A stretch of DNA of 64,000 bases. It comes from Bryobacteraceae bacterium (GTDB lineage Bacteria; Acidobacteriota; Terriglobia; Bryobacterales; Bryobacteraceae). The notes beneath the pieces were generated by a model. That model saw nothing but the letters and a program-made list of their open reading frames with translations. It did no database searches and was not told the origin of the DNA. Positions 4,533 through 19,630 of this stretch are shown here, one piece after another. Numbering within the stretch: the stretch's first letter is position 1; the number at the start of each line of letters is the position of its first letter. Both the position numbers and the translations under genes were made by a program. Location: positions 16,872-80,871 of the forward strand of contig JBEKMJ010000029.1 of the NCBI GenBank assembly GCA_050008575.1, given 5' to 3'.

Positions 4533-6232
<1,700 letters not shown>

Positions 6233-6236
<4 letters not shown>

Positions 6237-7840
6237 TCATTCTGGGAATCGGCGGCATTCTGGGCGACGCCGCGGCGGCCGTTTTGAGCGGCGGCTCTCT
6301 GGTGGCGGCCATGGAAGAATCCAAGCTCAGCCGGCAGGGACTCAAAGCCGGCGCGCACACGGGACCCACGGACCTTCCCGAGCAGTCCATGGCCGCGTGT
6401 CTCTCGCTGGCTGGCGCGGCGCCGGAGCAGGTTGACGCCGTGGCTATCGTGCGTCCATTCACGGCCGGGCCGGAGGCGTCGCTGCACCTGCAGTTGCGCG
6501 CGCGATTTCCCAATAGCCGCATCGTGGTGGTGGAACATCACACGGCGCACGCGGCTTCGGCATACTATCCGTCTCCGTTCGAAGAGGCTACCGTGCTGAC
6601 TCTGGATCGCGCGGGCGATTTCCGCTGCGGCACCCGTTGGCACGCGGCAGGCACGCAACTGACGCTCGACAGGGAGCTGTATTATCCCGACTCGCTGGGC
6701 GACCTATATGGCCGTGTGACTGAGTTACTGGGCTTCCGCGCCAACCTGGAAGAGCACAAGGTGCAGTGGCTCTCGGCATCATGTGGCGCGGGCGACGACC
6801 GGTTCCGCGACCTGTTTCTGGAAATCATGCCCATGCGGGACGGCGAATGGCCCCGCCTGGACCGATCGTTCTTCGATGCCGAGCGGCTGACCTGCGGCGG
6901 CTTCGGCGCGCGCTTTTACGAGCGGCTGGGGATCGACGAGGGCGCCGCGGTGCCCGAGCCGCTGCGCGCTCCGCTGGCGGCCGGCATACAGCGCGCCGTC
7001 GAGGAGACGGTGATCCGCATGGCCGGCTCGGGCACGCGGCGCCTTTGCCTGGCCGGCGGGTTGGGCTTGAACGCGCTGCTGGTTTCCGCGCTGGAACGCT
7101 CGTCGTTTGAGAATGTTTTCGTGCAGCCGGCAGCGGGGAATGCGGGCACGGCGCTTGGCGCGGCGCTCAATACCTGGCATGCCGTCTACAACCAGACCCG
7201 GCGCGTCCGCCTCGATAACCTTTATCTGGGTCCCAGTTACACCGCGGAAGAGATCAAGCGCGTACTCGAGAATTGCAAGCTGCGGTTCCGGTACATCCTG
7301 ACCACGGAAGAGACCGTCGACACGGCCATCGCGCAGCTTGCCGAGAACCGTATCGTGGCTTGGATGCATGGCCGCATGGAATTTGGGCCGCGCGCCCTGG
7401 GTAACCGCAGCATCCTGGCGTCGCCGTTGGACGGCTATGCCGCCGAGAACCTCAACGCCTTTATCAAGCATCGCGAGCCGTTCCGAAAATTCGCCGCCTC
7501 AGTGCCGGCCGAGATTGCCGGCGAGTACTTCGAGTGCGGTTCCAACGCCCGCTTTCTGGCCACCGCCGGCCGCGTTCGCCCGGCCCATCGCGGGCGCTTT
7601 GCCAGCGCGGTCCTGAACGGCGACGTGGTCCGCGTACACACGGTTTCGCAGGAGGACAATCCCCTGTACTGGAAACTGCTGCATGCCGCGGGGAAGGCCA
7701 CCGGGCTGCCGGTGCTCTACAACACTTCGTTCAACCTGTTCAGCGAGCCGCTGGTGTGCACTCCGCGCGACGCCGTGCGCAGCTTCTATTCGTCCGGAAT
7801 CGATGCCATGTTTGTCGGTAATTTCTTTCTGCAGAAGTGA
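6233..7840 (+). CDS. Carbamoyltransferase (NodU/CmcH family)
   Basis: '[18 protein letters not shown]...AMEESKLSR' and '[30 protein letters not shown]' fit the family pattern. The ATG overlaps the glnS stop (ATGA). Confidence 0.88.
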
Positions 7841-9622
7841 CCCGGGTAAGTAGACCGGATGTTGCAACAGGACAGCGTCGCTCACCGCGATGACACTGGG
7901 TTCAGAGCCTGGCGCCGAGCCGGCAAAGCCAACGGTAACGGCCGCAGTCTCCGGTGGAGGATAGGCGCTAACTACCATTGTGCTGAAAGCATGGGACGCG
8001 ATCGGTTCCGAAGGGTAAGTATCCAATATATCACCCGATGAATTCTTGAAGACGATACGCATGTACGCGCCGGGATCGCCGGACACAAGCCGCACGGAAG
8101 CCGCGAAGCTGTAAGGGCGGGTTCGATTGGCGCACTGCGTTTCGAAGGCGTAGCCGCCGGCGCCATGCAACTCAATGCGCGCCGCGCGCGGGCCATTCAG
8201 GAGATTCATGCGTGCAATCTGCGGGAGGCCTAAAACCGACGCCATGCCGACAGTGCACACACCGGCAGGGCCGCCCGCGGAGGCATAGAGTGGAAGGGCG
8301 CGCGGCAAATCAAAGAACGGATGCGGGTACATGACGGTTGGCAAATACAATTCCGGACGCACACACACCATGCCTGCCGGAACGTTCGCCCAATTTCTTT
8401 GATACACGGCCAGGCTCACGAAACGCCGCGCCAACTGGCCCCATCCGTCCATGGGACTGTGCCGCCGTAGGTGCACATATCCAGCCAGCGCATGTTGCGG
8501 CAGCGTCAACAGGACCATCAGCGCCAGCGGGAGGAACGCGTTCGAATACTGGCTGCGGGCGATGCTGAAGACGCCTTCCGCGAGCCATGCAAGAATCAGG
8601 CCCAGAGCCGCCGCCGGCAGATATTGGTATCGACTGGACGCGGCTGAGGGGATGCCTAGCTGGACCCTGCCTACAGCCGTCAACGCGTAAGGCAACAGCA
8701 GCATCGACAACGGCACGAGCAGGGCGAACATGCGGTCCTTCGAAAGAAAGCGGCGCCAGAAGAACAATCCCGCCACCGAGAAGATAATGCTCAACACCAG
8801 GGGCGCGCTCAGCGGCGCTCGGTAGGACGCCGCCAAGCCGCGCATGGCAGTGAAAGCCCAGGGAATCACTTGCAGCGCCTGGCGCACGCTTGCCTGGCTG
8901 AGGGCATGCTCCAAGCCGCCGCGGTCGGACCGCAGCAGGACTGTGAAGCCGAGCATGATCGTTACGGCCGGCAATGTGCAAATGGCCGCCACTCGCTTCC
9001 AGGTGCGTCGGCGCGATGCCGCAGCCTGGGCGGCCAACAGCGGAACGACCAATAATCCGAAGCCCATCGACCAGCTTGCGAGCAAGGCGGTGCACATCGT
9101 GACCGCCAGCAGGAGTGGCTCTCCCCGCCGCAGATAGCGGCTGCCAACAATCAGACTCAATAAGATGAACAGCAGCGCCAGAGTGGTTTGCTGTCCCGCT
9201 TCCCACATCGTGACTTCCCAATAGACGCCGCTAAACGCAAAGAACAAGGCGCCGAATACCCGCGCAACGGCCAAAGCGGCGAACTCGGCCGAAACAACAT
9301 ACAGCAAGGCGGCATTGGTGGAATGGATGAAGATATTAACCGCCTGATAGGGAAAATTATGCATGCCAAACAACGCGTACTGAAGATACAGTACAGCTTT
9401 TGACACGGGCATGAAGTGCTCGTTATGCATGCGCCATATCGTCCGCCAGCCTTGTTCGTGAAACTCGCACAGAATGTCCCATGTATCGCCGAAGAAGTAG
9501 AGTTGGAACGGCCGGTAAGCGGCTAGAGAAAAAAGCGCGGTGGCCAGGACGACGATTCCAAGAGGGGCATAGTCCTGCCTGCCCAATCTCGTGGCGCCGG
9601 GCGTGATTTTGCCAGCGTGCAT
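7499..9622 (-). CDS. Polytopic membrane protein, possibly a GT-C-type (PMT/ArnT-like) glycosyltransferase, with a C-terminal soluble domain
   Basis: About 12 hydrophobic segments (e.g. 'LALLFILLSLIVGSRYL', 'LLVVPLLAAQAAA') are followed by a non-membrane region. The start is uncertain: the ORF start at 9697 would overlap the divergent gene, so the ATG at 9622 was chosen. The frame has no stop until 7499, 342 nt inside the convergent carbamoyltransferase gene. Confidence 0.55.
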   Translation of the reverse strand: MHAGKITPGATRLGRQDYAPLGIVVLATALFSLAAYRPFQLYFFGDTWDILCEFHEQGWRTIWRMHNEHFMPVSKAVLYLQYALFGMHNFPYQAVNIFIHSTNAALLYVVSAEFAALAVARVFGALFFAFSGVYWEVTMWEAGQQTTLALLFILLSLIVGSRYLRRGEPLLLAVTMCTALLASWSMGFGLLVVPLLAAQAAASRRRTWKRVAAICTLPAVTIMLGFTVLLRSDRGGLEHALSQASVRQALQVIPWAFTAMRGLAASYRAPLSAPLVLSIIFSVAGLFFWRRFLSKDRMFALLVPLSMLLLPYALTAVGRVQLGIPSAASSRYQYLPAAALGLILAWLAEGVFSIARSQYSNAFLPLALMVLLTLPQHALAGYVHLRRHSPMDGWGQLARRFVSLAVYQRNWANVPAGMVCVRPELYLPTVMYPHPFFDLPRALPLYASAGGPAGVCTVGMASVLGLPQIARMNLLNGPRAARIELHGAGGYAFETQCANRTRPYSFAASVRLVSGDPGAYMRIVFKNSSGDILDTYPSEPIASHAFSTMVVSAYPPPETAAVTVGFAGSAPGSEPSVIAVSDAVLLQHPVYLPGSLLQKEITDKHGIDSGRIEAAHGVARSAHQRLAEQVERSVVEHRQPGGLPRGMQQFPVQGIVLLRNRVYADHVAVQDRAGKAPAMGRANAAGGGQKAGVGTALEVLAGNLGRH

Positions 9623-9686: not shown

Positions 9687-12029
9687 ATGCGCTTCATTTT
9701 GGTTTGCCTGCTCAGTGTGCCGCTTCTCTATGCTCAGTCGCCTGACGAGAAGGAAGATCTCCCCAATCCGGTAGCGGGGCAGTCCGAAGCCATCGCCGCG
9801 GGCAAGAAATTGTATCTGGAAGGCTGCAGCGGCTGCCATGGCCCTACCGCGGAAGGCGGCCGCGGTCCCAACCTGGCGCAAGGCGACCAGATCCGCGGCG
9901 CCACGAACCGGCACTTGGTCTCTGTCATCACCGATGGCGTGAAGGGGTCGGATATGCCGCCATCCGGGCTGACCGGCGACAAGGTCTGGCCGCTTATCGC
10001 CTATCTCCGGAATTTGACGGCCGTGGCGTTCGATAGCACAGCGGCGGGCGACGTGCAGTCCGGCAGCGCCTTGTTCTTCGGCAGCGCGGGCTGCGCCAAC
10101 TGCCACACGATCCGGGGACGTGGTGGTTTTCCCGGTCCGGATCTTTCCAATATCGGCCGGGTGCGTTCCTTCCGCCAACTCCGCGAATCGCTGGTCGATC
10201 CCGATGCCAAAATCGCGGAAGGGTACGGCGGTGTCACCGTCATAACGAAGTCCGGGCAGACGATTGCAGGCGTGGCGCGCGACAATACCAATTACGCGAT
10301 CCAGATTCTCGATGCGCGCGGGGATCTTCATCGCCTTTTGAAAGCGGATCTGCGCGAGGTGGTCTTGCGCGGGGGTTCGCTGATGCCTGGAGATTTCAAG
10401 CAGCGTTTGAGTTCCCGCGACATTGAGGACCTACTTGCATTCCTCGGACGGCAGTCGATACGCGGCAATGCGGCGGCTACCGTTGGCACGCCCGCCTCCA
10501 CGGGCGCGCGCTACGATCTGATCCGCGCGGGCGCGGGGGCCGATTGGCTAACCTATGCCGGCGATTACGCGGCGCACCGCCACAGCCCGCTAAAGCAGAT
10601 CACGGCCGCCAACGCCGGGTCGCTGGTATCGGCATGGGTCTACCACGTGGATGGCGCCACTCACTTGGAGGCCACGCCGCTGGTCTACGACGGCGTCATG
10701 TACATCACCAATAGCAACGAAGTACACGCGCTGGACGCGCGCACTGGCCGCCCGATTTGGAAGTATCGCGACGAACTGGCCAAGCGCAGCGACGTGAACC
10801 GCGGCGTCGCCATTCTCGGAGACAGCGTGTTCTTCGTCACCAGCGATGCGCACCTGGTGGCGCTCAACCGCAAGACGGGCGGTGGACTGTGGGACCGCGA
10901 GTTTGCAGACACCAGCCGCGGCGCGTTCGCCACGCTAGCGCCCATGGTGGTGAGGGATCGCGTGATCGTGGGAGTATCGGGCGGCGATACGGGCGTGCGC
11001 GGATTCCTGGCGGCATTCTCCGCCGCTACCGGCGAAGAGTTATGGCGTTTCTGGACTGTGCCCGCCAAAGGCGAACCCGGCGCGGAAACATGGGGTGAAC
11101 TGGGCCCCGAATGGGGTGGCGCGGCGACCTGGCTCAGCGGCACTTACGATGCGGAGCTCAACGTTCTCTACTGGACAACCGGGAATCCGTGGCCCGATTT
11201 TTACGGCGGCGCGCGCCATGGCGACAATCTCTATTCCGATTCGCTGCTGGCGCTGGACGCCGATACAGGCAAGTTGAAATGGTATTTCCAATTCACGCCG
11301 CACGACACGCACGATTGGGATGCGCAGTCCTGGCCCGTGCTGCTCGACAGCCTGTACGAAGGCCACCAGCGCAAGCTTCTGCTGCACCCCAACCGCAACG
11401 GCTACCTCTATGTGTTAGATCGGACTACCGGCGAATTCCTGCGCGCCACGCCTTTCGTGGAGAGGCTGAATTGGGCCAAGGGCGTGGATGCGAAGGGCCG
11501 TCCAATCGGGAATCCCGGCATGGAGCCTTCGCCGAACGGCACGCGCGTGTGTCCTTCGGTGCGCGGCGCTGCTAACTGGATGTCGCCTTCGTATAACCCG
11601 CAAACGGGATTGCTCTATGTGCCTACGCTGGAACAGTGCGATGTGTATAGCTCATCCGCCAAGACACCCGAGCCGATGAAGAACTTCGCAGGCACTGGCG
11701 GCGAGGCAATTTCGAAAGAGCCGGGCAAATTCTATCTGCGCGCGCTCGATCCGCGCACCGGCGGGAAGCGCTGGGAATACCCGATGACCGGGCACGGCGA
11801 TATGTGGGCGGGAACTGTTTCCACCGCGGGCGGCCTGGTATTCTTCGGCGATGACGACGGGCAGCTTGTGGCTGTGGACGCTGTGACGGGCAGGCATCTT
11901 TGGCATTATTATCTGGGACAGAACATTACTGCCTCGCCCATTACCTTCATGGCCGATGGTAAGCAGTATGTGACGATTGCCGCGGCCACCGATGTTTTCA
12001 CGTTCGCGCTGTTCGAGAGTGCTCGTTAG
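9687..12029 (+). CDS. Quinohemoprotein: signal peptide, two N-terminal c-type haem domains, and a PQQ-type beta-propeller dehydrogenase
   Basis: Signal 'MRFILVCLLSVPLLYAQ'. CXXCH motifs 'CSGCH' and 'CANCH'. PQQ-dehydrogenase-like repeats ('GVMYITNSNEVHALDARTGRPIWKY', 'VFFVTSDAHLVALNRKTGGGLW', 'TPHDTHDWD'). Confidence 0.85.
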   Translation: MRFILVCLLSVPLLYAQSPDEKEDLPNPVAGQSEAIAAGKKLYLEGCSGCHGPTAEGGRGPNLAQGDQIRGATNRHLVSVITDGVKGSDMPPSGLTGDKVWPLIAYLRNLTAVAFDSTAAGDVQSGSALFFGSAGCANCHTIRGRGGFPGPDLSNIGRVRSFRQLRESLVDPDAKIAEGYGGVTVITKSGQTIAGVARDNTNYAIQILDARGDLHRLLKADLREVVLRGGSLMPGDFKQRLSSRDIEDLLAFLGRQSIRGNAAATVGTPASTGARYDLIRAGAGADWLTYAGDYAAHRHSPLKQITAANAGSLVSAWVYHVDGATHLEATPLVYDGVMYITNSNEVHALDARTGRPIWKYRDELAKRSDVNRGVAILGDSVFFVTSDAHLVALNRKTGGGLWDREFADTSRGAFATLAPMVVRDRVIVGVSGGDTGVRGFLAAFSAATGEELWRFWTVPAKGEPGAETWGELGPEWGGAATWLSGTYDAELNVLYWTTGNPWPDFYGGARHGDNLYSDSLLALDADTGKLKWYFQFTPHDTHDWDAQSWPVLLDSLYEGHQRKLLLHPNRNGYLYVLDRTTGEFLRATPFVERLNWAKGVDAKGRPIGNPGMEPSPNGTRVCPSVRGAANWMSPSYNPQTGLLYVPTLEQCDVYSSSAKTPEPMKNFAGTGGEAISKEPGKFYLRALDPRTGGKRWEYPMTGHGDMWAGTVSTAGGLVFFGDDDGQLVAVDAVTGRHLWHYYLGQNITASPITFMADGKQYVTIAAATDVFTFALFESAR

Positions 12030-12945: not shown

Positions 12946-13452
12946 GTGCATCTGGATTTAGCCGATTTGCGCCGGGCCGGCGCCGACGCGGACGAACTGG
13001 ACAAGATCAGGCCGTTTGACCCCGCGGCCCCCTATCTCCGGGCGGAACTGGCGCTGGCGCAGGCCAGATGGGATGCGGCGGAGAGCCAGGCTGGCGAGGC
13101 GACGCGGCGGCTCGGAACAGCGGTGGACCGGCCCTTGGAAGTTGCGATCGCCTTGGTGCGGGCCGCAGGGCTCAACGGCGGCGGCCATCCCCGCGAAGCG
13201 CTACGCGTGTTCGATGAGGTTGCTCCGATGCTCGATCGGTCCCGCCGCGCGCTTCTGCAGATTCGAGCGCGCGTGTGCCATTTGCGGGCGCAGGCCTTGC
13301 TGGGATCGTGTCCGGGCGCCGCGCCGTTCCAGGATTTGCTGGGCGCCGCGAAGAGGCTGGGGATTCCCGCGCTGGGGCGCGACGTGGAGCGGGCAGGGGG
13401 CCTGCTGCGGGTTAAATGCGGCACGGCGGTTTACGCGGTTCGCCGGGACTGA
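12946..13452 (+). CDS. Hypothetical protein, probably the C-terminal remnant of a helical-repeat regulator
   Basis: GTG-start ORF with an Ala/Leu/Arg-rich helical sequence. An in-frame stop lies 21 codons upstream. No recognisable N-terminal domain. Confidence 0.3.
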   Translation: MHLDLADLRRAGADADELDKIRPFDPAAPYLRAELALAQARWDAAESQAGEATRRLGTAVDRPLEVAIALVRAAGLNGGGHPREALRVFDEVAPMLDRSRRALLQIRARVCHLRAQALLGSCPGAAPFQDLLGAAKRLGIPALGRDVERAGGLLRVKCGTAVYAVRRD

Positions 13453-13460
13453 CTCGAACC

Positions 13461-14390
13461 CTAACGAGGCTCCGCCACTTCACCCCCCAGCACGAGCTTC
13501 GTATCGGCGCGGAACTTCTTGTAGTCGCGGTAAGTTACATCCCGCTCGAGATTGAATTCTTTGAGCAGCGCGACGCGCGCATCCAACTTCACCGCCATGT
13601 GTTGCGGCAGCCACACTTCGTCGTTCACCCGTGTTTGCTCCATGACGACGCGCGAGCCTTTGTGCAGGCGCGCCAACACCAGCCCAAAGGAGACCGTGTC
13701 GATGCACTGAATATCGAGCTTCTTCCATTCCGACTCGATCTTGTCGATCCAGGCTCGGAAGCGGAGCTTGGACAAGAATCCGGCTTCTTTCATATGCGGC
13801 CGGTATCCGGGCCTCGGCACGGCGTCGATCACGTAGGTTTCACGCCCGTCGATCGATTCGATGCCGGCCAGACGGAAGTTGTAGGCGTCCGCCACCTCGC
13901 GCACAAACCGGCGATCCTCTTCCCGCTGTTTCTCGGCTTTCTCCTGCCGCTTTTGACGCTCCTTCTCGTCTTCGCCCGCGCGCTTGGCGACTACCCTCTT
14001 GATCTTTTCTTCTTCTTTCGCGGCAGCGTCGCTGGAAAGCGCTTTGTCGTCTTTGGCCACCAAGCGGCGAACCTCCGAGCCGTAAAGCTCCATCACTTCG
14101 TAGGTCGTCGCCTCTGTGGACTTGACGTGGCCCTTGCCATCCAGCGTGTGCGTTTCCGAGCGTTCGGTGTAGGTGTAATCGCGCTGCTTTTTGTCGTTCT
14201 GCAGGTCGGCGTCGGCGACGTGGCGGAACAGGTCGCGGATCTGGTCTTCGGAGAGGGCGGGCGAGCCGCCTTTTGCCGCCGGTTCGGCGCGCTCTTGGGC
14301 ACACAATCCGGCCGAAACCAGGAAGACGGCCAGGATGCCCGGCCCGGTATGCATAACGAAGACCCTCTTGCAGTCAGACGATGGTTTCAT
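13461..14390 (-). CDS. Secreted LolA-like / outer-membrane-lipoprotein-sorting-like protein
   Basis: Signal 'MKPSSDCKRVFVMHTGPGILAVFLVSAGLCAQ'. A charged coiled linker is followed by a C-terminal region ('YNFRLAGIESIDGRETYVIDAVP...WLPQHMAVKLDARV') resembling the LolA-like fold family. Confidence 0.7.
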   Translation of the reverse strand: MKPSSDCKRVFVMHTGPGILAVFLVSAGLCAQERAEPAAKGGSPALSEDQIRDLFRHVADADLQNDKKQRDYTYTERSETHTLDGKGHVKSTEATTYEVMELYGSEVRRLVAKDDKALSSDAAAKEEEKIKRVVAKRAGEDEKERQKRQEKAEKQREEDRRFVREVADAYNFRLAGIESIDGRETYVIDAVPRPGYRPHMKEAGFLSKLRFRAWIDKIESEWKKLDIQCIDTVSFGLVLARLHKGSRVVMEQTRVNDEVWLPQHMAVKLDARVALLKEFNLERDVTYRDYKKFRADTKLVLGGEVAEPR

Positions 14391-14789
14391 CGAAATGTTA
14401 CAACGGACGTTCCGGGCACCACCACAATTACTTCTTTCCTGGGTCGCCAGGTGAAGTGGAAAGCGACACATCGCCGTCGGCGAACGGCTGACCGAACCGG
14501 CGGCATGGCGGGCCCGATGAAATTAGGTCCCGAGGCCGAACCCACGATAGAATTGAACTGTCATGGATGCGAAGAGTCCCAATTCCCGTGCCGCGGAAAA
14601 GGTTAGCGCCATTCTTTCGAGGCAGGGCCGGGGATTGACTACCGGCGAACGGGAAGCGCGCTTGCAGGGCTTTGAGCGAATCGCTAATTCTGTTCGCGCT
14701 TGTGGTTCCAAATCCGGAGGACCTCGCCCGCTCCCCGGGGAGTCCTCGGAGAGGCCGTATTCGCGCATAGCTGCCTTTAGAACGTCGGT

Positions 14790-15045
14790 GGTTCCGTAAT
14801 CCACGGCGAACCCCTTCGATATCGTCAGCCAATCCGCGCCCCTCGATCCCGCGTCTATCGTGCAGCCAACCACGCCGCGGGCGCCGGCAGAGTAGCGCCT
14901 TTGTTGGCGCGCCTGTGCGCCTTCGCCGTATCCCAGCGCGATGGGCAGCGTGTCGAACAGCGCGGCCACCGTGGTCATCATGACGGGTCGGAGGCGCAGC
15001 ATGCAGCATGCAGCCCGAGTAGATGGCTCCGAACGGCGGCTTGCC
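14790..15045 (-). pseudogene. Decayed 3'-terminal fragment of an RND permease gene (displaced gene end)
   Basis: Translation 'MLRLRPVMMTTVAALFDTLPIALGYGEGAQARQ' matches 'MLRFRPIMMTTVAALFGTLPIALGYGEGAEARQ' of the intact pump at 16532-19630. A 7-nt duplication at 15001-15014 and downstream indels break the frame. The lower boundary is approximate. Confidence 0.75.
14904..15045. repeat. Direct-repeat copy 1 of the RND 3' region (partner at 16694-16828)
   Basis: Hand alignment gives about 124 of 135 aligned nt identical, plus one 7-nt insertion. Confidence 0.85.
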
Positions 15046-15068
15046 TGCGGGCCGGCCTCCCCTGCAAG

Positions 15069-15097
15069 TTGACTAAAACTTGAGCTATAGGTAAAAT
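15069..15097 (+). promoter_or_regulatory. Near-consensus sigma70-type promoter (TTGACT-N17-TAAAAT) for the three-gene cassette
   Basis: TTGACT at 15069-15074 and TAAAAT at 15092-15097. The inverted repeat CAAGTT/AACTTG (15065-15070 and 15077-15082) straddles the -35. Confidence 0.5.
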
Positions 15098-15123
15098 TCT
15101 AATGGTGGGTTGCGGCGACGCGA

Positions 15124-15576
15124 ATGCCATATTCGGTAGCCACGATCAGCGGTGTTCCACGCACCCGTCGTGGCATTGGATTTCTTGAGTCCGCGGACAA
15201 TGGCCGGGTTAACGCCAAGCGATATTTCGACAAGCTCAAGGAGAAGACCGCGCGAGACGTGCGCGGCAGGTTCGACTACTGGTTGGCGGGAGGCCTATTC
15301 GACAAGTACTTTCACGGCTGGCCGAACGACAGGGAACATAAACATTGCTTCGTATTCAAGTGGAAGCAAGCGGGAACCCATCATCGTTTCTACGGTTTCT
15401 TGTGTAACCCTATGGAGTCGAAAGATCCGCCTTTCCAGGTCTGTATCCTCGTATCCCACGCACAAAAGAACACGGAAGAGACGGACCCTTCAGAGTTGAA
15501 TACAGTGAACGAGTTGAGAATTAAGAAAGAAGTCGTGAAGGCCGTGATGGCGGCATTTCCGGACATTGACGAATAG
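15124..15576 (+). CDS. Gp49/HigB-like (RelE/ParE superfamily) putative toxin, enlarged variant
   Basis: 'HRFYGFLCNP...FQVCILVSHAQKNTEETDPSELNTVNELR' fits the Gp49-like core pattern (R-x-aromatic, hydrophobic strand, K-x-x-x-x-T/P, E-hydrophobic-x-x-hydrophobic). An XRE antitoxin-like gene lies immediately downstream. AT-richer than the flanks. Confidence 0.65.
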   Translation: MPYSVATISGVPRTRRGIGFLESADNGRVNAKRYFDKLKEKTARDVRGRFDYWLAGGLFDKYFHGWPNDREHKHCFVFKWKQAGTHHRFYGFLCNPMESKDPPFQVCILVSHAQKNTEETDPSELNTVNELRIKKEVVKAVMAAFPDIDE

Positions 15577-15585
15577 GAGAACCGT

Positions 15586-16098
15586 ATGCCTAACGAATTG
15601 CATTGGACCGAAGTGGAGCCCAAGGCCTTTGCGCACAGCATGGCTTTCGGTTTCATCGCCCAGATTGAAAAAAGATTAGAGGATCTGGGTCTCAGCCAAT
15701 CCGAATTGGCGCGTAGGCTAGCCGTCTCGGAGGGCGCCGTGTCCAAGGTCCTGAACAATCCTCAGAATCTTACGCTGGAAACAATTGCCAAGTATACGCG
15801 CGCGCTTCAGACAAAAGCGGCAATCGTCGCGTACGACGATAATGATCGGACGAACAGGAACGGGCCAGTGTTGCCGGAGATCTTCAATATTTGTTGGGAG
15901 CGCGCCGGAAAGCCCCGCGACATGTGGTCTCTGGAGGCGGTTCCAAGGAGACCCTCGCGCGCTATGCGAAGCCGAGCGTATCGGAAATTGAGGCACGCGA
16001 CGAGACAGTGGCGGGGATCCCATGAATTCGGCGCACACCCTGGTTCGCAGAGCTCGGGTATTGGGGCGATGGGTCGCGCAACCTGGTCGCAGAAATAA
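15586..16098 (+). CDS. XRE-family helix-turn-helix protein (putative antitoxin/regulator)
   Basis: 'LGLSQSELARRLAVSEGAVSKVLNNPQNLTLETIAKYTRAL' is a classic HTH_XRE segment. AGGAG lies 6 nt upstream of the ATG. The basic C-terminal ~70 aa look unusual, so a frameshift is possible. Confidence 0.75.
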   Translation: MPNELHWTEVEPKAFAHSMAFGFIAQIEKRLEDLGLSQSELARRLAVSEGAVSKVLNNPQNLTLETIAKYTRALQTKAAIVAYDDNDRTNRNGPVLPEIFNICWERAGKPRDMWSLEAVPRRPSRAMRSRAYRKLRHATRQWRGSHEFGAHPGSQSSGIGAMGRATWSQK

Positions 16099-16110
16099 AG
16101 GAGCACTGAA

Positions 16111-16467
16111 GTGTCTAGAAAAGCACGAGACACAGCGGAAGCTGCGTCGCCGATTAATCTTAAGGAGATCGCGATCGAAGAACCTGAAGACGGGGTGTTC
16201 GACGCGTATTCAAATGTCGTCCAACTGAATTGGACCTCCAATGATGTCACACTTCGCTTCGGACAGCTCATTCAAGTTCCAAACCCCGAATCGCCGAAGT
16301 GGGGGGATCAATACGGAACACTTCTGGAGCGAGCCGCCGTCACTCTGCCTTGGCACCAGGCCAAGGTTCTCCGGGACATGCTGGACGGCATTATCCGGAA
16401 CTATGAGCAGATCAACGGCGAGCTTAAGCCGCTAAAGTTGCCAGCCCCTCCCGCTCCCATCGCGTAA
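16111..16467 (+). CDS. DUF3467-like protein (function unknown)
   Basis: 'DAYSNVVQLNWTSNDVTLRFGQ' and 'RAAVTLPWHQAKVLRDMLDGIIRNYEQINGEL' match my recollection of the DUF3467 pattern (YsN..h.hs..EF.hDF ... P.hAK.L...L...I..YE..fG.I). AAAGGAG lies 7 nt before the GTG start. Confidence 0.7.
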   Translation: MSRKARDTAEAASPINLKEIAIEEPEDGVFDAYSNVVQLNWTSNDVTLRFGQLIQVPNPESPKWGDQYGTLLERAAVTLPWHQAKVLRDMLDGIIRNYEQINGELKPLKLPAPPAPIA

Positions 16468-16531
16468 CACGATCCGGTCGATCATCCGATTGGATTGTAC
16501 GCGCAGGTTTCGCGCCACTCGCCAACTTGAC

Positions 16532-19500
16532 CTATCCGGCAGCTAACTCGCGAGGCCGTGCCGGCGACTCAGCGCCCTTACTGCCCCTCAGCCAGGTCTG
16601 GACCCTCTCCATGTACAGATAGATCACCGGCGTAATATACAGCGTCAGTAACTGCGACACCAGCAGCCCGCCGACCACGGCCAGGCCCAGCGGCTGGCGC
16701 GCCTCCGCGCCTTCGCCGTAGCCCAGCGCGATGGGCAGCGTGCCGAACAGCGCCGCCACGGTGGTCATCATGATGGGGCGGAAGCGCAGCATGCAGCCCG
16801 AGTAGATGGCTTCGAACGGCGGCTTGCCCTCCACGCGCTGCTGTTCCAGCGCGAAGTCGATCATCATGATGGCGTTCTTCTTCACCACGCCGAACAACAT
16901 GATCAGGCCGACGAAAGCGTAGAGGTCCAGCTCCTTGTGAAACAGGCGCAGCGTGAGCAGCGCGCCGAACACCGCCGAGGGCAGCCCCGAAAGAATCGTG
17001 ACGGGATGGATGAAGCTCTCGTACAGAATGCCCAACACGATGTAGATCACCAGAATGGCCACGATCAACAGGATGGACAGCCCCTGGAACGACTGCTGGA
17101 ATTCCTTCACGGTGCCTTGGAAGTTGACGCTGATAGTGGGCGGCACGCGCAGCGATTGTACGGTGTCTTTCACCTGCTGGGCGGCATTGCCGAGCGAGAA
17201 ACCGGGCGCCAGGTTGAACGATATAGTCACGGCCGGCAATTGTCCGAAGTGGTTGACGGTCAGGGGACCGACGCCGCGCGATAGCTTCACCACGGAATCG
17301 AGGGGCACCAGCGGTCCCTGCGTGGAGCGCAGATAGATTTTGGAAAGGCCTTCCGGCGTGCGTTGATAGCGCGGCTCCACCTGCATGATGACGGCGTACT
17401 GATTGGCCGGCGAATAAATCGTGGAGACTTGCCGGTCGCCATACGCGGCATAGAGGGCATCCTCAATCTGCTGCGGGGAGAGGCCCAGCGCCACGGCGCG
17501 ATCCCGGTCGATGTCCACGTTCACCTGCGGGCTGGCGATCTGCAGGTCGGAATTCACGTCCAGAAAGCCCGGCAGCGCGCGCATCTTGTCGACCACCGGA
17601 TCGACCCAAGCGTAAATCTCCTTCAAATTCGGGCTCTGCATGGTCATCTGATACGCGCTGGTCGAGAATTGTCCGCTCACCGTGATGGGCGGCGGATTCT
17701 GGAGGAACACCATGATGCCGGGAACGGCGCCCACCTGGGGCCGCACCCTGGCCAGGATCTGGTCGGCGGTAAACTTCCGTTGGGAGCGCGGCTTCAGTGT
17801 GGCGAACATGCCCACCTGGTTGCCGCCCATCATGAAGGCGCCGGTGTTCTCCACATCCGGATCGCGCTGTACGATATCCGCGACGGCGCGCAGGTGCTTG
17901 GCCATCGATTCAAAAGAAATATCCTGGCCCGAAAGAGCGAACCCGAAGAAAAACCCGCTGTCCTGGCTGGGGATGAACCCGGTGGGCATGCCGAAGAACA
18001 TATAAACGGTTCCGCCCAGCAGCAGGAGGCCGGCCATCAGCGTGGCGAATTGATGGCGCAACACGCCTTTCAGGGTGTAATCGTAGCCCGACGCCAAAGC
18101 CTGGAACCCGGACTCAAACGCGCCGTACATGCGGCCGTGGCGGCCGGTATGGCTATATCGCAGGAAACGGCTGCCCAGCATGGGCGTGAGACTCAGAGAC
18201 ACGAAACCGGAAATCAGAATGGCGATGGCGATGGTGACGGCGAACTCGTGCAGCAGCCGTCCCACGATGCCGCCCATGAAGAGGATGGGAATGAAGACGG
18301 CCACCAGCGAGACGGTCATGGAAATAATGGTGAAACCGATTTCCTTGGACGCCAGCAGCGCGGCTTCCATGCGCCCTTTACCCATCTCCATGTAGCGGAC
18401 GATATTTTCGAGCATCACGATCGCATCGTCGACCACGAACCCCACCGACAGGGTCAGCGCCATCAGGGAGAGATAATTCAGGCTGTAGCCGAGCAGATAC
18501 ATGGCGGCGAACGTACCGACGATGGAGAGGGGCACGGCCACACCCGGAATCAGGGTGGCGCTCAGGTTGCGCAGGAAAATGAAGATGACCATCACCACCA
18601 GGCAGACGGTGAGCATGAGCGTGTATTCCACGTCGTCGATCGAACCGCGGATGGATTCCGCCGCATCGCCGCCGATTTCGAGCTTGATGGCGGGCGGCAG
18701 TTCGCTTCGAAACTGCGGCAACAACGCTTTGACGCTGTTCACCACTTCCACCGTGTTGGTGCCGGGTTGGCGCTGCACGGCGAGCATGGTGCTTTTCTTG
18801 CCGTTGAACCAGGCACCGGTCTTGTCGTTCTCGAAGCCGTCGATGACGGTACCGAGCTGCTCCAGCCGTATGGGCACACCGTTCTTATAAGCGACGATGA
18901 TAGGCCGGTAAGCGGCGGCGCGGGTCAACTCGCCGCTCGATTGCACGGTGAAAGCCTGCTTCTCGCCGTACAATTTGCCGGTGGGCAGGTTCACGTTGCT
19001 GCGCTGGATGGCCTGCATCACTTCGTCGAAACCGACGCCGCGCGCGGCCAGTTCGTCGGGATTCAATTGCACCCGCACGGCAAACTTCTGGCCGCCGAAC
19101 ACCTGCACACGCGAAACGCCGGAGACCATGGACATGCGCTCGGCCAGCAGCGTTTCCGCGTACTCGTCCACGGTGTAGGCCGGCAGGGTATCGGAACTCA
19201 GGGAGAGGAACAGCACCGGTTGTTCGGCCGGATTGGCTTTTTCGTAGGAAGGCGGATGCGGCATGTTGGCCGGCAGCACGCCCTCGGCCTTGGCAATGGC
19301 GGACTGGATATCCTGCGCGGCCGCGTCGATATTGCGCGCGAGGGTGAATTGCACGTTGATCTGTGTAGTTCCCTGGGAGTTCGTGGAACTCATGTTTTGC
19401 ACGCCGGCGATGGTGGAAAACTCGCGCTCGAGCGGCGTGGCCACCGCCGCGGCCATGGTCTCCGGGTTGGCGCCCGGAAGCGAAGCGTTGACCTGAATGG

Positions 19501-19630
19501 TCGGATAATCGACGGTCGGCAAAGCGGCCACCGGCAGCGACCGGAAGGCCACGGTGCCGAACAGCAGAATCGCGAACATGACCAGCGCGGTCATGACGGG
19601 ACGCTCGATGAAGATGCGGGAGATATGCAT
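16532..19630 (-). CDS. RND efflux permease (AcrB/MdtB-like, HAE1 type)
   Basis: 1032 aa. 'MHISRIFIERPVMTALVMFAILLFG' is a typical AcrB N-terminus. It shows the 12-TM architecture with two large periplasmic loops. Confidence 0.95.
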   Translation of the reverse strand: MHISRIFIERPVMTALVMFAILLFGTVAFRSLPVAALPTVDYPTIQVNASLPGANPETMAAAVATPLEREFSTIAGVQNMSSTNSQGTTQINVQFTLARNIDAAAQDIQSAIAKAEGVLPANMPHPPSYEKANPAEQPVLFLSLSSDTLPAYTVDEYAETLLAERMSMVSGVSRVQVFGGQKFAVRVQLNPDELAARGVGFDEVMQAIQRSNVNLPTGKLYGEKQAFTVQSSGELTRAAAYRPIIVAYKNGVPIRLEQLGTVIDGFENDKTGAWFNGKKSTMLAVQRQPGTNTVEVVNSVKALLPQFRSELPPAIKLEIGGDAAESIRGSIDDVEYTLMLTVCLVVMVIFIFLRNLSATLIPGVAVPLSIVGTFAAMYLLGYSLNYLSLMALTLSVGFVVDDAIVMLENIVRYMEMGKGRMEAALLASKEIGFTIISMTVSLVAVFIPILFMGGIVGRLLHEFAVTIAIAILISGFVSLSLTPMLGSRFLRYSHTGRHGRMYGAFESGFQALASGYDYTLKGVLRHQFATLMAGLLLLGGTVYMFFGMPTGFIPSQDSGFFFGFALSGQDISFESMAKHLRAVADIVQRDPDVENTGAFMMGGNQVGMFATLKPRSQRKFTADQILARVRPQVGAVPGIMVFLQNPPPITVSGQFSTSAYQMTMQSPNLKEIYAWVDPVVDKMRALPGFLDVNSDLQIASPQVNVDIDRDRAVALGLSPQQIEDALYAAYGDRQVSTIYSPANQYAVIMQVEPRYQRTPEGLSKIYLRSTQGPLVPLDSVVKLSRGVGPLTVNHFGQLPAVTISFNLAPGFSLGNAAQQVKDTVQSLRVPPTISVNFQGTVKEFQQSFQGLSILLIVAILVIYIVLGILYESFIHPVTILSGLPSAVFGALLTLRLFHKELDLYAFVGLIMLFGVVKKNAIMMIDFALEQQRVEGKPPFEAIYSGCMLRFRPIMMTTVAALFGTLPIALGYGEGAEARQPLGLAVVGGLLVSQLLTLYITPVIYLYMERVQTWLRGSKGAESPARPRELAAG
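16694..16828. repeat. Direct-repeat copy 2 (inside the intact RND gene; partner at 14904-15045)
   Basis: See the hand alignment described for copy 1. Confidence 0.85.

What the first reader, a model, noticed from the sequence alone, without database searches (positions are those of the whole stretch)
15065..16467. Three-gene module: enlarged Gp49/HigB-like toxin + XRE HTH + DUF3467, a possible tripartite TA or defence cassette
Three co-directional genes sit with 9- and 12-nt gaps behind TTGACT-N17-TAAAAT. SD sequences precede genes 2 and 3, and a 6-bp inverted repeat CAAGTT/AACTTG straddles the -35 as a candidate operator. Gene 1 has the Gp49/HigB-like RelE-superfamily core ('HRFYGFLC...FQVCILVSHAQKNTEETDPSELNTVNELR'). 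It is about 40-50 aa larger than typical members, with the extra segment 'FHGWPNDREHKHCFVFKWKQ'. Gene 2 is an XRE HTH protein with an odd basic tail. Gene 3 matches the DUF3467 pattern, a family with no assigned function. Toxin-HTH pairs are well known. A fixed third DUF3467 partner is not a system I know to be described. The module also rides on the mini-island above, which is the usual address of TA and defence cargo.
Basis: partly seen in the sequence, partly recalled or inferred. Interest (0 to 1): 0.65.

Follow-up and report, generated by a model that had tools for sequence, protein, structure and literature searches.

The report
Toxin–antitoxin operon with DUF3467 partner
A three-gene operon encodes a probable RNA-cutting toxin, its DNA-binding antitoxin and a small acidic protein of unknown function (DUF3467); DUF3467 genes consistently follow antitoxins with a matching basic tail, which suggests a SecB-independent version of the "chaperone-addicted" toxin–antitoxin systems.

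Summary
Gene 2 is an XRE HTH protein and gene 3 is DUF3467.

Gene 1 matches no Pfam, NCBIfam or PADLOC model. It belongs to a small family of about 325 clusters. Its confident AlphaFold model is closest to the S. pneumoniae HigB toxin. The "extra segment" is the family's conserved core, not an insertion.

The central claim holds. In 63 of 64 informative loci, DUF3467 genes of this clade directly follow a toxin–antitoxin pair. The pairs belong to at least four types: gene1/gene2, Gp49–XRE, a Gp49-like family B, and MqsA-type.

Antitoxins next to this DUF3467 clade carry an Arg/Lys-rich C-terminal tail. Gene-2 homologues followed by a different third gene do not (p≈5e-10). Gene1–gene2 pairs are never bicistronic, and their third gene comes from three families with no detectable similarity.

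This is the logic of toxin–antitoxin–chaperone (TAC) systems, but DUF3467 shows no detectable SecB relationship. Best reading: a TAC-like tripartite module in which acidic DUF3467 binds the antitoxin's basic tail. Toxicity, binding and defence are untested. I rate it a new variant of a known kind.

The parts
15069..15097 (+). Sigma-70-type promoter: TTGACT, 17-nt spacer, TAAAAT
   Evidence: Only promoter-like site in 14700-16700. The core is invariant in relatives L051 and L052 while the upstream flank diverges.
15065..15082 (+). CAAGTT-N6-AACTTG inverted repeat over the -35; weak operator candidate
   Evidence: Present in the sequence. The left arm is not conserved in L052 or L051. A 6-bp repeat of this kind is expected by chance.
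15124..15576 (+). Gene 1, 150 aa: putative toxin from a small unannotated family, with a divergent HigB/Gp49-like RelE-superfamily fold
   Evidence: 88 homologues, none with a Pfam domain. 325 clusters in 1.84 billion proteins. AF2 pLDDT 92.5. Foldseek best PDB match is HigB 6af4; best viral match has TM 0.63/0.73. hhalign to Gp49-like family B gives E 8e-4. Invariant H64, R88, Y90 and K115; nearly invariant K79.
15586..16098 (+). Gene 2, 170 aa: XRE-HTH antitoxin candidate
   Evidence: HTH_3 at 36.6 bits. antidote_HigA scores 30.6 bits, below its 47.7 cut-off. A homologue sits directly downstream of a gene-1 homologue in 42 of 42 genome loci.
15664..15816 (+). HTH_3 domain of gene 2 (residues 27-77)
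15817..15933 (+). Conserved post-HTH segment of gene 2 (residues 78-116, KAAIVAYDDNDR..GP..EIFNICWERAGKPRDMW); possible toxin-binding part (inferred)
   Evidence: Conserved across all 44 homologues aligned.
15934..16095 (+). C-terminal extension of gene 2 (residues 117-170, pI 12). It includes the Arg/Lys-rich stretch VPRRPSRAMRSRAYRKLRHATRQWR (nt 15940-16014) and a distal SSGIGAM motif. Proposed DUF3467-binding ('addiction') tail.
   Evidence: The tail is variable among gene-2 homologues. It is basic only when DUF3467 of this clade follows. pI.
16111..16467 (+). Gene 3, 118 aa, acidic (pI 4.9): DUF3467 protein, proposed partner of the antitoxin tail
   Evidence: PF11950 at 36.3 bits, cut-off 25. 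75 homologues, nearly all with a PF11950 hit. AF2 model shows three strands and a long helix, pLDDT 68.6. Always the third gene behind a TA pair.
14905..15045 (.). Left copy of a ~140-bp direct repeat: a frameshifted fragment of the RND pump gene's 3' region
   Evidence: 88% identical to 16695-16828, with a 7-bp indel. Weak ACR_tran hit on the 159-aa ORF (L127).
16695..16828 (.). Right copy of the direct repeat, inside the intact RND pump gene (16532-19630, minus strand)

Best explanation
The operon is a tripartite type II toxin-antitoxin module that works on the toxin-antitoxin-chaperone (TAC) principle, with DUF3467 in the place of SecB.

Gene 1 is a divergent HigB/Gp49-like RelE-superfamily protein. 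It is most likely a ribosome-dependent mRNA endonuclease (inferred from fold and conserved basic residues).

Gene 2 is its antitoxin. The HTH would repress the conserved promoter, and the conserved parts on either side of the HTH would neutralise the toxin (inferred).

Gene 2 ends in a poorly conserved, strongly basic C-terminal extension. Gene 3, the acidic DUF3467 protein, binds that extension and keeps the antitoxin soluble, stable or active. Toxin control therefore depends on gene 3 (inferred from co-variation, not shown).

Loss or titration of DUF3467 would free the toxin. Candidate causes are a competing basic ligand from a phage, or stress.

Shown here: the gene order; the universal linkage; exchange of the third gene between unrelated TA pairs; co-variation of tail chemistry with third-gene type.

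Inferred: toxicity, RNase activity, physical tail-DUF3467 binding, and the trigger.
For: Linkage. Gene1-gene2 homologues are adjacent in 42 of 42 genome loci and always have a third small gene. DUF3467 of this clade follows a TA pair in 63 of 64 loci with at least 600 nt of upstream DNA.

Modularity.
- DUF3467 proteins 55-65% identical to gene 3 sit behind toxins and antitoxins unrelated to genes 1 and 2. BLASTP gives toxin E 0.39, and antitoxin 23% identity confined to the HTH.
- Partner pairs include Gp49-like family B (Gp49 16-24 bits), bona fide Gp49 (40-57 bits) and MqsA-type antitoxins (35 and 42 bits, cut-off 30).
- Conversely, gene1-gene2 pairs carry one of three third-gene families with no similarity to each other by hhalign: a ~90-aa family in about 31 loci, DUF3467-like in 8, and a 172-182-aa family in 2.

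Co-variation of the tail with the third gene.
- Maximum K+R in 25 residues: median 9 with DUF3467 (n=51) against 3 with the 90-aa family (n=29), p=5e-10.
- Net charge of the last 70 residues: +8 against -1, p=3e-11.
- A 'basic run + hydrophobic + R/Q + S/G' motif occurs in 20/51 against 0/29 tails. An IGA[SM]-like motif occurs in 16/51 against 0/29.
- DUF3467 core charge is anticorrelated with tail charge (Spearman -0.47, p=1.5e-4, n=59).
- Gene 3 has pI 4.9 and the gene-2 tail has pI 12.

Toxin fold. The Gp49-like TAC toxin HigB of M. tuberculosis has four strands flanked by helices and a long C-terminal helix, with catalytic R68, R77 and K95 (PMC9098466). Gene 1 has K79, R88 and K115 on the corresponding strands.

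TAC definition and modular ChAD elements: bioRxiv 10.1101/2024.02.24.581848.
Against: - No experiment supports any step.
- DUF3467 shows no SecB relationship. There is no PF02556 hit. hhalign against E. coli SecB gives probability 0.1%. No SecB appears among the Foldseek matches, although that model is only moderate (pLDDT 68.6).
- Gene 1 fails every toxin HMM, and its structural match is modest (TM 0.38-0.54).
- The statistics are not corrected for phylogeny, and many loci come from related peat and soil Acidobacteriota.
- Deep-branching DUF3467 partners of gene-2 homologues (L033, L034, L036) have non-basic tails. The charge rule therefore holds for the clade, not for the whole family.
- No binding or multimer model could be computed.
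Confidence: 0.55

Rival explanations
1. DUF3467 binds the antitoxin tail but is not a stabilising chaperone. Instead it acts as a co-regulator or sensor. It might tune operator binding by masking a basic, DNA-binding tail, or serve purely as the trigger-sensing subunit of an abortive-infection system.
For: The same tail and third-gene co-variation fits any binding partner. Arg/Lys-rich tails can bind nucleic acid. TAC chaperones also act as phage sensors (bioRxiv 10.1101/2024.02.24.581848).
Against: Nothing distinguishes this from the main model with the data at hand. The module is nearly absent from viral contigs and from PADLOC models, so a defence role has no direct support.
Confidence: 0.17
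2. DUF3467 is the real antitoxin and binds the toxin directly. The HTH protein is only the transcriptional regulator, as in three-component systems such as PaaR2-PaaA2-ParE2 or omega-epsilon-zeta (own knowledge).
For: Three-gene TA systems with a separate regulator exist. DUF3467 is small and acidic, as many antitoxins are.
Against: A direct toxin binder should co-vary with the toxin. Here near-identical DUF3467 proteins (55-65% identity) accompany toxins with no detectable similarity, and one toxin family accepts three unrelated third genes. What does co-vary is the antitoxin's tail. The HTH proteins also keep conserved non-HTH segments, as expected of a toxin-binding antitoxin.
Confidence: 0.1
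3. The operon is not a toxin system. Gene 1 is a non-toxic RelE-fold protein, for example an inactive HigB-like regulator, and the cassette has another role.
For: Gene 1 matches no toxin HMM. M. tuberculosis HigB2 and HigB3 are non-toxic RelE-fold proteins (PMC9098466). In L045-L047 the toxin ORF is truncated while the other two genes remain intact.
Against: The family keeps invariant R88, Y90, K115 and H64 and nearly invariant K79. The gene order, overlaps and short gaps, HTH partner and IS association are those of TA modules. In sister modules with the same third gene, the toxins are bona fide Gp49.
Confidence: 0.1
4. Gene 3 lies next to a two-gene TA pair by chance.
For: None beyond the prior for a single locus.
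Against: 63 of 64 informative loci, plus 4 of 4 distant relatives, show the same arrangement across several phyla.
Confidence: 0.01

Closest known systems
Toxin-antitoxin-chaperone (TAC) systems: M. tuberculosis HigB1-HigA1-SecB^TA (Rv1955-1957); E. coli HigBAC, MqsRAC and CmdTAC
   Same: Tricistronic order of toxin, antitoxin, third gene. The toxin has a Gp49/HigB-type fold. The antitoxin has an XRE HTH and a poorly conserved C-terminal extension. The extension co-varies with the third gene. The third gene is shared among different TA families (HigBA-like and MqsA-type), as SecB^TA is (PMC5105189, PMC6377645).
   Different: The third protein is DUF3467 (118 aa, three predicted strands and a helix). 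It has no detectable SecB similarity. The tail is Arg/Lys-rich, rather than defined by the aromatic pattern described for ChAD. Chaperone dependence is untested.
HigBA / Gp49-XRE type II toxin-antitoxin pairs (Pfam PF05973 with HTH_3)
   Same: The toxin gene comes first, followed by an XRE-HTH antitoxin behind a single promoter. The fold of gene 1 is closest to S. pneumoniae HigB.
   Different: Gene 1 is below detection for PF05973 and all other toxin models. It forms its own family of about 325 clusters. A third gene is obligatory.
Three-component TA systems with a separate regulator (PaaR2-PaaA2-ParE2, omega-epsilon-zeta; own knowledge)
   Same: Three small co-transcribed genes that include a DNA-binding protein.
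   Different: In those systems the third component is the repressor. Here the HTH sits on the protein that occupies the antitoxin position, and the extra gene has no DNA-binding signature.
PADLOC candidate system PDC-M64
   Same: Gene 2 matches the PDC-M64C HTH model (E 5e-9).
   Different: Genes 1 and 3 match nothing in PADLOC, so the resemblance is only that of a generic XRE HTH.

Membership tests
Pfam Gp49 / HigB-like toxins (PF05973, PF05015, PF09907) for gene 1 | Match to the family HMM above the gathering score | tested here: not met
   No hit for gene 1. None of 64 family members hits any RelE-superfamily model at E<=1. No NCBIfam or PADLOC hit.
RelE/ParE (BECR) superfamily for gene 1 | Fold: antiparallel sheet flanked by helices, similar to solved toxins | tested here: inconclusive
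   AF2 pLDDT 92.5, with strands at 16-23, 63-65, 75-82, 85-94 and 105-115 and helices at 31-54 and 122-144. The only credible PDB match is HigB 6af4 (probability 0.93, TM 0.38-0.54). An unnamed viral protein matches at TM 0.63/0.73. hhalign to Gp49-like family B gives probability 24%, E 8e-4.
RelE/ParE (BECR) superfamily for gene 1 | Conserved basic catalytic residues on the central strands | tested here: inconclusive
   R88, Y90, K115 and H64 are invariant and K79 nearly invariant. They lie where R68, R77 and K95 of HigB^TAC would map (PMC9098466). The mapping is by pattern, not by superposition.
RelE/ParE (BECR) superfamily for gene 1 | Toxicity and mRNA cleavage | not testable with these tools
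   Needs expression and cleavage assays.
HigA-type XRE antitoxin for gene 2 | XRE HTH domain, encoded directly after the toxin | tested here: met
   HTH_3 at 36.6 bits. Adjacent to a gene-1 homologue in 42 of 42 loci.
HigA-type XRE antitoxin for gene 2 | Match to the NCBIfam antidote_HigA equivalog (TIGR02607) | tested here: not met
   30.6 bits against a cut-off of 47.7.
DUF3467 (PF11950) for gene 3 | Match above the gathering score | tested here: met
   36.3 bits against a cut-off of 25. The listed homologues carry PF11950 apart from P0097.
TAC systems | Tricistronic toxin-antitoxin-third gene operon | tested here: met
TAC systems | Third gene encodes a SecB-like chaperone | tested here: not met
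   No SecB Pfam hit for gene 3 or for the alternative third genes. hhalign against E. coli SecB gives probability 0.1%. No SecB among Foldseek matches, on a model of moderate confidence.
TAC systems | Antitoxin carries a C-terminal extension beyond its conserved domains | tested here: met
   Residues 117-170 lie after the last conserved block, and every homologue has a variable tail. The MqsA-type partners are 207-221 aa against a 131-position model.
TAC systems | The extension is specific for the third protein and moves with it between TA families | tested here: met
   Tail charge and motifs follow the third-gene type. The same DUF3467 clade occurs with at least four TA backbones.
TAC systems | Antitoxin stability or solubility depends on the third protein | not testable with these tools
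   Needs co-expression, tail deletion and binding assays.
Known anti-phage defence systems (PADLOC-DB 2.0) | Component models match the genes | tested here: not met
   Only generic HTH models hit gene 2. Genes 1 and 3 have no hit.

The most novel reading that the evidence does not exclude
Chaperone (or adaptor) addiction of toxin-antitoxin modules is not confined to SecB. DUF3467, and two further unannotated families found here at the same position (a ~90-aa family and a 172-182-aa family), would be independent classes of third components. Each would recognise its own short motif in the antitoxin's C-terminal tail.

DUF3467 would read an Arg/Lys-rich motif by charge complementarity. It could serve as the sensor that releases a new HigB-like toxin family when a competing basic ligand, such as a phage protein, appears.
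Probability: 0.4. Interest if true: 0.8.

Novelty: new variant of a known kind. Interest (0 to 1): 0.65.

Why it matters
DUF3467 is a Pfam family with no assigned function. The full-text search found no literature linking it to toxin-antitoxin biology: 'DUF3467' occurs once, in an unrelated paper, and 'PF11950' never. The neighbourhood and co-variation data give it a concrete, testable role as the third subunit of TA modules, binding the antitoxin's tail.

If confirmed, the TAC concept would extend beyond SecB. It would add a recognition code (a basic motif read by an acidic partner) that could be grafted onto other antitoxins. It would also add a new HigB-like toxin family and two further candidate third-component families.

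It would also matter for annotation. Two-gene TA finders would miss the dependence on the third gene, and defence-system catalogues have no model for it.

Tried and rejected
- SecB homology of DUF3467. Pfam, hhalign against E. coli SecB (sequence verified against 5jtl) and Foldseek gave nothing. I rejected it as a demonstrable relationship, but the structure model is only moderate (pLDDT 68.6).
- SecB identity of the 172-182-aa third genes of L040 and L042. I suspected this from an N-terminal 'VELFSIELKDV' stretch. There is no Pfam hit and no BLASTP similarity.
- Common ancestry of the three third-gene families. hhalign probabilities are below 1%.
- A sequence-level link from gene 1 to solved toxins. 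The profile search of the PDB gave only chance hits.
- The 6-bp inverted repeat as operator. Its left arm is not conserved in relatives.
- A frameshift artefact as the origin of the basic tail. Rejected, because close relatives keep the tail in frame with conservative changes.
- Phage carriage. The DUF3467 clade is absent from IMG/VR, and the gene-1 family appears on one 4-kb fragment.
- The diverse alignment A3 could not be used to scan viral contigs.
- Literature searches for 'DUF3467' and 'PF11950' found nothing relevant.
Full report
**1. What is there.**
The + strand carries three tightly spaced ORFs:
- 15124-15576, 150 aa
- 15586-16098, 170 aa
- 16111-16467, 118 aa, GTG start

The gaps are 9 and 12 nt. 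GGAG and AAGGAG precede genes 2 and 3. TTGACT-N17-TAAAAT lies at 15069-15097. It is the only promoter-like site in 2 kb, against 0.8 expected by chance. Its core is invariant in two relatives whose upstream flank is unrelated.

The CAAGTT/AACTTG repeat exists, but its left arm varies in those relatives. G+C falls to 0.49-0.55 inside the module, against about 0.60-0.65 in the flanks. Public gene calls for the identical contig (GCA_964425385.1) give the same three genes.

**2. The three proteins.**
Gene 2 has an XRE HTH (HTH_3, 36.6 bits). Gene 3 is DUF3467 (36.3 bits, cut-off 25).

Gene 1 hits nothing in Pfam, NCBIfam or PADLOC.
- It has 88 full-length homologues of 145-170 aa, none with a Pfam domain.
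- An exhaustive profile search finds only 325 clusters in 1.84 billion proteins.

A deep-alignment AlphaFold model is confident (pLDDT 92.5). It shows a sheet flanked by helices, with C-terminal helices. Its only credible PDB match is the S. pneumoniae HigB toxin (probability 0.93, TM 0.38-0.54). An unnamed viral protein matches better (TM 0.63/0.73).

HigB of S. pneumoniae and the M. tuberculosis TAC toxin are Gp49-like toxins with a long C-terminal helix and catalytic R68, R77 (R73 in S. pneumoniae) and K95 (K92) (PMC9098466). Gene 1 keeps K79, R88 and K115 on the corresponding strands. I therefore treat gene 1 as a divergent HigB/Gp49-like toxin, not as a member of PF05973.

**3. Gene 1 and gene 2 are never alone.**
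A scan of one genome per species gave 42 loci. Most are Acidobacteriota; others are Desulfobacterota, Nitrospirota, Gammaproteobacteria, Verrucomicrobiota and Myxococcota. In all 42, a gene-2 homologue follows the gene-1 homologue.

Gene-2 homologues share an N-terminal helix (HWTE.S..DF), the HTH and a block KVAIVAYDD..GP..EIF..CWE..GKP.DFW. After that block, every one continues into a non-conserved tail of 50-90 residues.

A third small gene always follows, but its family differs:
- a ~90-aa family with no Pfam hit, in about 31 loci
- DUF3467-like proteins, in 8 loci
- a 172-182-aa family, in 2 loci

hhalign finds no similarity among these three families.

**4. DUF3467 is a recurrent third gene of several TA types.**
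Close relatives of gene 3 (55-65% identity) were looked up on long contigs. Each sits behind a ~140-aa protein and a ~200-aa HTH protein. These are not homologues of genes 1 and 2. BLASTP gives E 0.39 for the toxins, and 23% identity confined to the HTH for the antitoxins.

A metagenome scan added 64 loci. Among DUF3467 loci with at least 600 nt of upstream sequence:
- 57 have a toxin ORF plus an HTH antitoxin: 10 of the gene-1 family and 47 of a 'family B'. Family B scores 16-24 bits on Gp49.
- 3 have the antitoxin, with the contig ending before a toxin could be seen.
- 1 (L064) has both, but the antitoxin frame runs into DUF3467.
- 2 (L080, L113) have MqsA-type antitoxins (35 and 42 bits, cut-off 30) that are about 80 residues longer than the model.
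- 1 (L092) has a 5'-truncated DUF3467 behind an ABC ATPase.

Four distant DUF3467-like proteins also follow toxin-HTH pairs. Three of those toxins are bona fide Gp49 (40-57 bits) and the fourth is a weak Gp49 hit.

**5. The antitoxin tail follows the third gene.**
Antitoxins followed by this DUF3467 clade have an Arg/Lys-rich stretch in the tail, whatever their backbone. Examples:
- window: RRPSRAMRSRAYRKLRHATRQWR
- L008: QKQRRHTRRCFYHIRSPRKRTKR
- L043: GKRRRRIRGNNRRRRPK
- L049: RHKIRRKRAAFNGRRRSIHPKKRR
- L080 (MqsA type): QRRKTERRM..HRRLRRGTSRH

| Measure | DUF3467-linked tails (n=51) | 90-aa-family-linked tails (n=29) | p |
|---|---|---|---|
| Max K+R in 25 residues (median) | 9 | 3 | 5e-10 |
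| Net charge, last 70 residues (median) | +8 | -1 | 3e-11 |
| Basic-hydrophobic motif | 20/51 | 0/29 | 2.7e-5 |
| IGA[SM]-like motif | 16/51 | 0/29 | 3.2e-4 |

Gene 3 is acidic (pI 4.9, clade median 4.9) and the gene-2 tail has pI 12. Across 59 pairs, DUF3467 charge is anticorrelated with tail charge (Spearman -0.47, p 1.5e-4).

These tests are not corrected for phylogeny. However, the pattern repeats across unrelated antitoxin backbones. Deep-branching DUF3467 subfamilies have other, non-basic tail motifs.

**6. Interpretation.**
The following are the defining features of TAC systems (bioRxiv 10.1101/2024.02.24.581848; PMC5105189; PMC6377645):
- a TA pair followed by a third gene
- an antitoxin with a disordered C-terminal extension specific for that third protein
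- exchange of the third gene together with its tail between TA families

The one defining feature not met is SecB. DUF3467 has no SecB hit by Pfam, hhalign or Foldseek. Its model (three strands and a long helix) is only moderately confident.

My conclusion is that the module works like a TAC, with DUF3467 as a different, acidic partner of a basic tail. I do not file it as a TAC member.

A direct toxin-binding role for DUF3467 is unlikely, because it does not co-vary with the toxin. A purely regulatory or sensing role for the tail-DUF3467 contact cannot be excluded.

**7. Context and mobility.**
The module lies between ~140-bp direct repeats (14905-15045 and 16695-16828). These are copies of a stretch near the 3' end of the convergent RND pump gene, and the left copy is a frameshifted fragment. 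Relative L052 is syntenic but lacks the left copy. L051 has a longer pump fragment there.

IS1-like or IS1595-like transposase genes lie within about 1 kb of related modules in roughly 13 of 42 genome loci and 9 of 64 metagenome loci. The family is almost absent from viral contigs.

**8. Verdict.**
The tripartite reading is supported by comparative genomics. The module is best described as a new, SecB-independent variant of chaperone-addicted TA systems. It gives DUF3467 its first functional hypothesis. All biochemical steps remain to be tested.

Noticed in passing
window 14905-15045 and 16695-16828: The module, together with the last ~54 codons of the RND pump gene, is bracketed by ~140-bp direct repeats (88% identical). 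The left copy carries a 7-bp tandem duplication (GCAGCAT) and is a frameshifted fragment of the pump gene. This looks like a footprint of insertion by single-crossover recombination. Relatives L051 and L052 show a longer left copy and no left copy, respectively.
   Followed up: partly
L001-L042, third gene (e.g. L014:7018-7299, L012:4476-4757): About 31 of 42 gene1-gene2 loci carry a different third gene of ~90 aa (consensus MPEATQ..F..KELAEILVK.Q.IHEGIWG.YV.FG). It has no Pfam hit and a mostly basic pI. The antitoxin tails next to it are aromatic-rich rather than basic. It may be another unannotated 'third component' family.
   Followed up: partly
L040:7016-7534 and 10745-11263; L042:6990-7538: A third, 172-182-aa family occupies the same position. 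It has no Pfam hit and no similarity to SecB. L040 carries two copies of the whole module about 3.7 kb apart, with an IS1595-type transposase gene between them (7830-8798).
   Followed up: partly
L006:7389-8249, L019:7350-8270, L033:2453-3283, L014/L015/L025 (~4915-5860), and L068, L077, L088, L100, L109: IS1-like transposase genes (DDE_Tnp_IS1, 19-31 bits; the L033 gene scores 18.8, below the 24.1 cut-off) recur within about 1 kb of both gene-1-type and family-B-type modules. This suggests that the cassettes travel with, or are targeted by, one IS family.
   Followed up: partly
L064:945-1892: The antitoxin reading frame continues into DUF3467 as one 315-aa ORF, and the basic stretch is lost. 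This is either a sequencing frameshift or a natural antitoxin-DUF3467 fusion. A fusion would support a physical interaction.
   Followed up: no
L045-L047:2124-2429: The Gp49-like toxin ORF is only 101 aa and appears truncated, while the antitoxin and DUF3467 genes stay intact. This may be toxin decay that leaves an antitoxin-partner pair.
   Followed up: no
L092:600-1793: A DUF3467 coding region lacking its N-terminal part lies in frame behind an ABC-transporter ATPase gene. This is the only locus with no toxin-antitoxin pair upstream. It may be a rearrangement or a chimeric assembly.
   Followed up: no
L121/L122:2299-4132: One DUF3467-type trio sits in a cluster of other toxin-antitoxin genes (nucleotidyltransferase/HepT pair, ParE toxin). 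This is typical of TA islands.
   Followed up: no
window 13461-14471 (-) and 12946-13452 (+): The two ORFs to the left of the module (336 aa and 168 aa) have no Pfam match. The 336-aa gene is conserved in the syntenic relative L052.
   Followed up: partly
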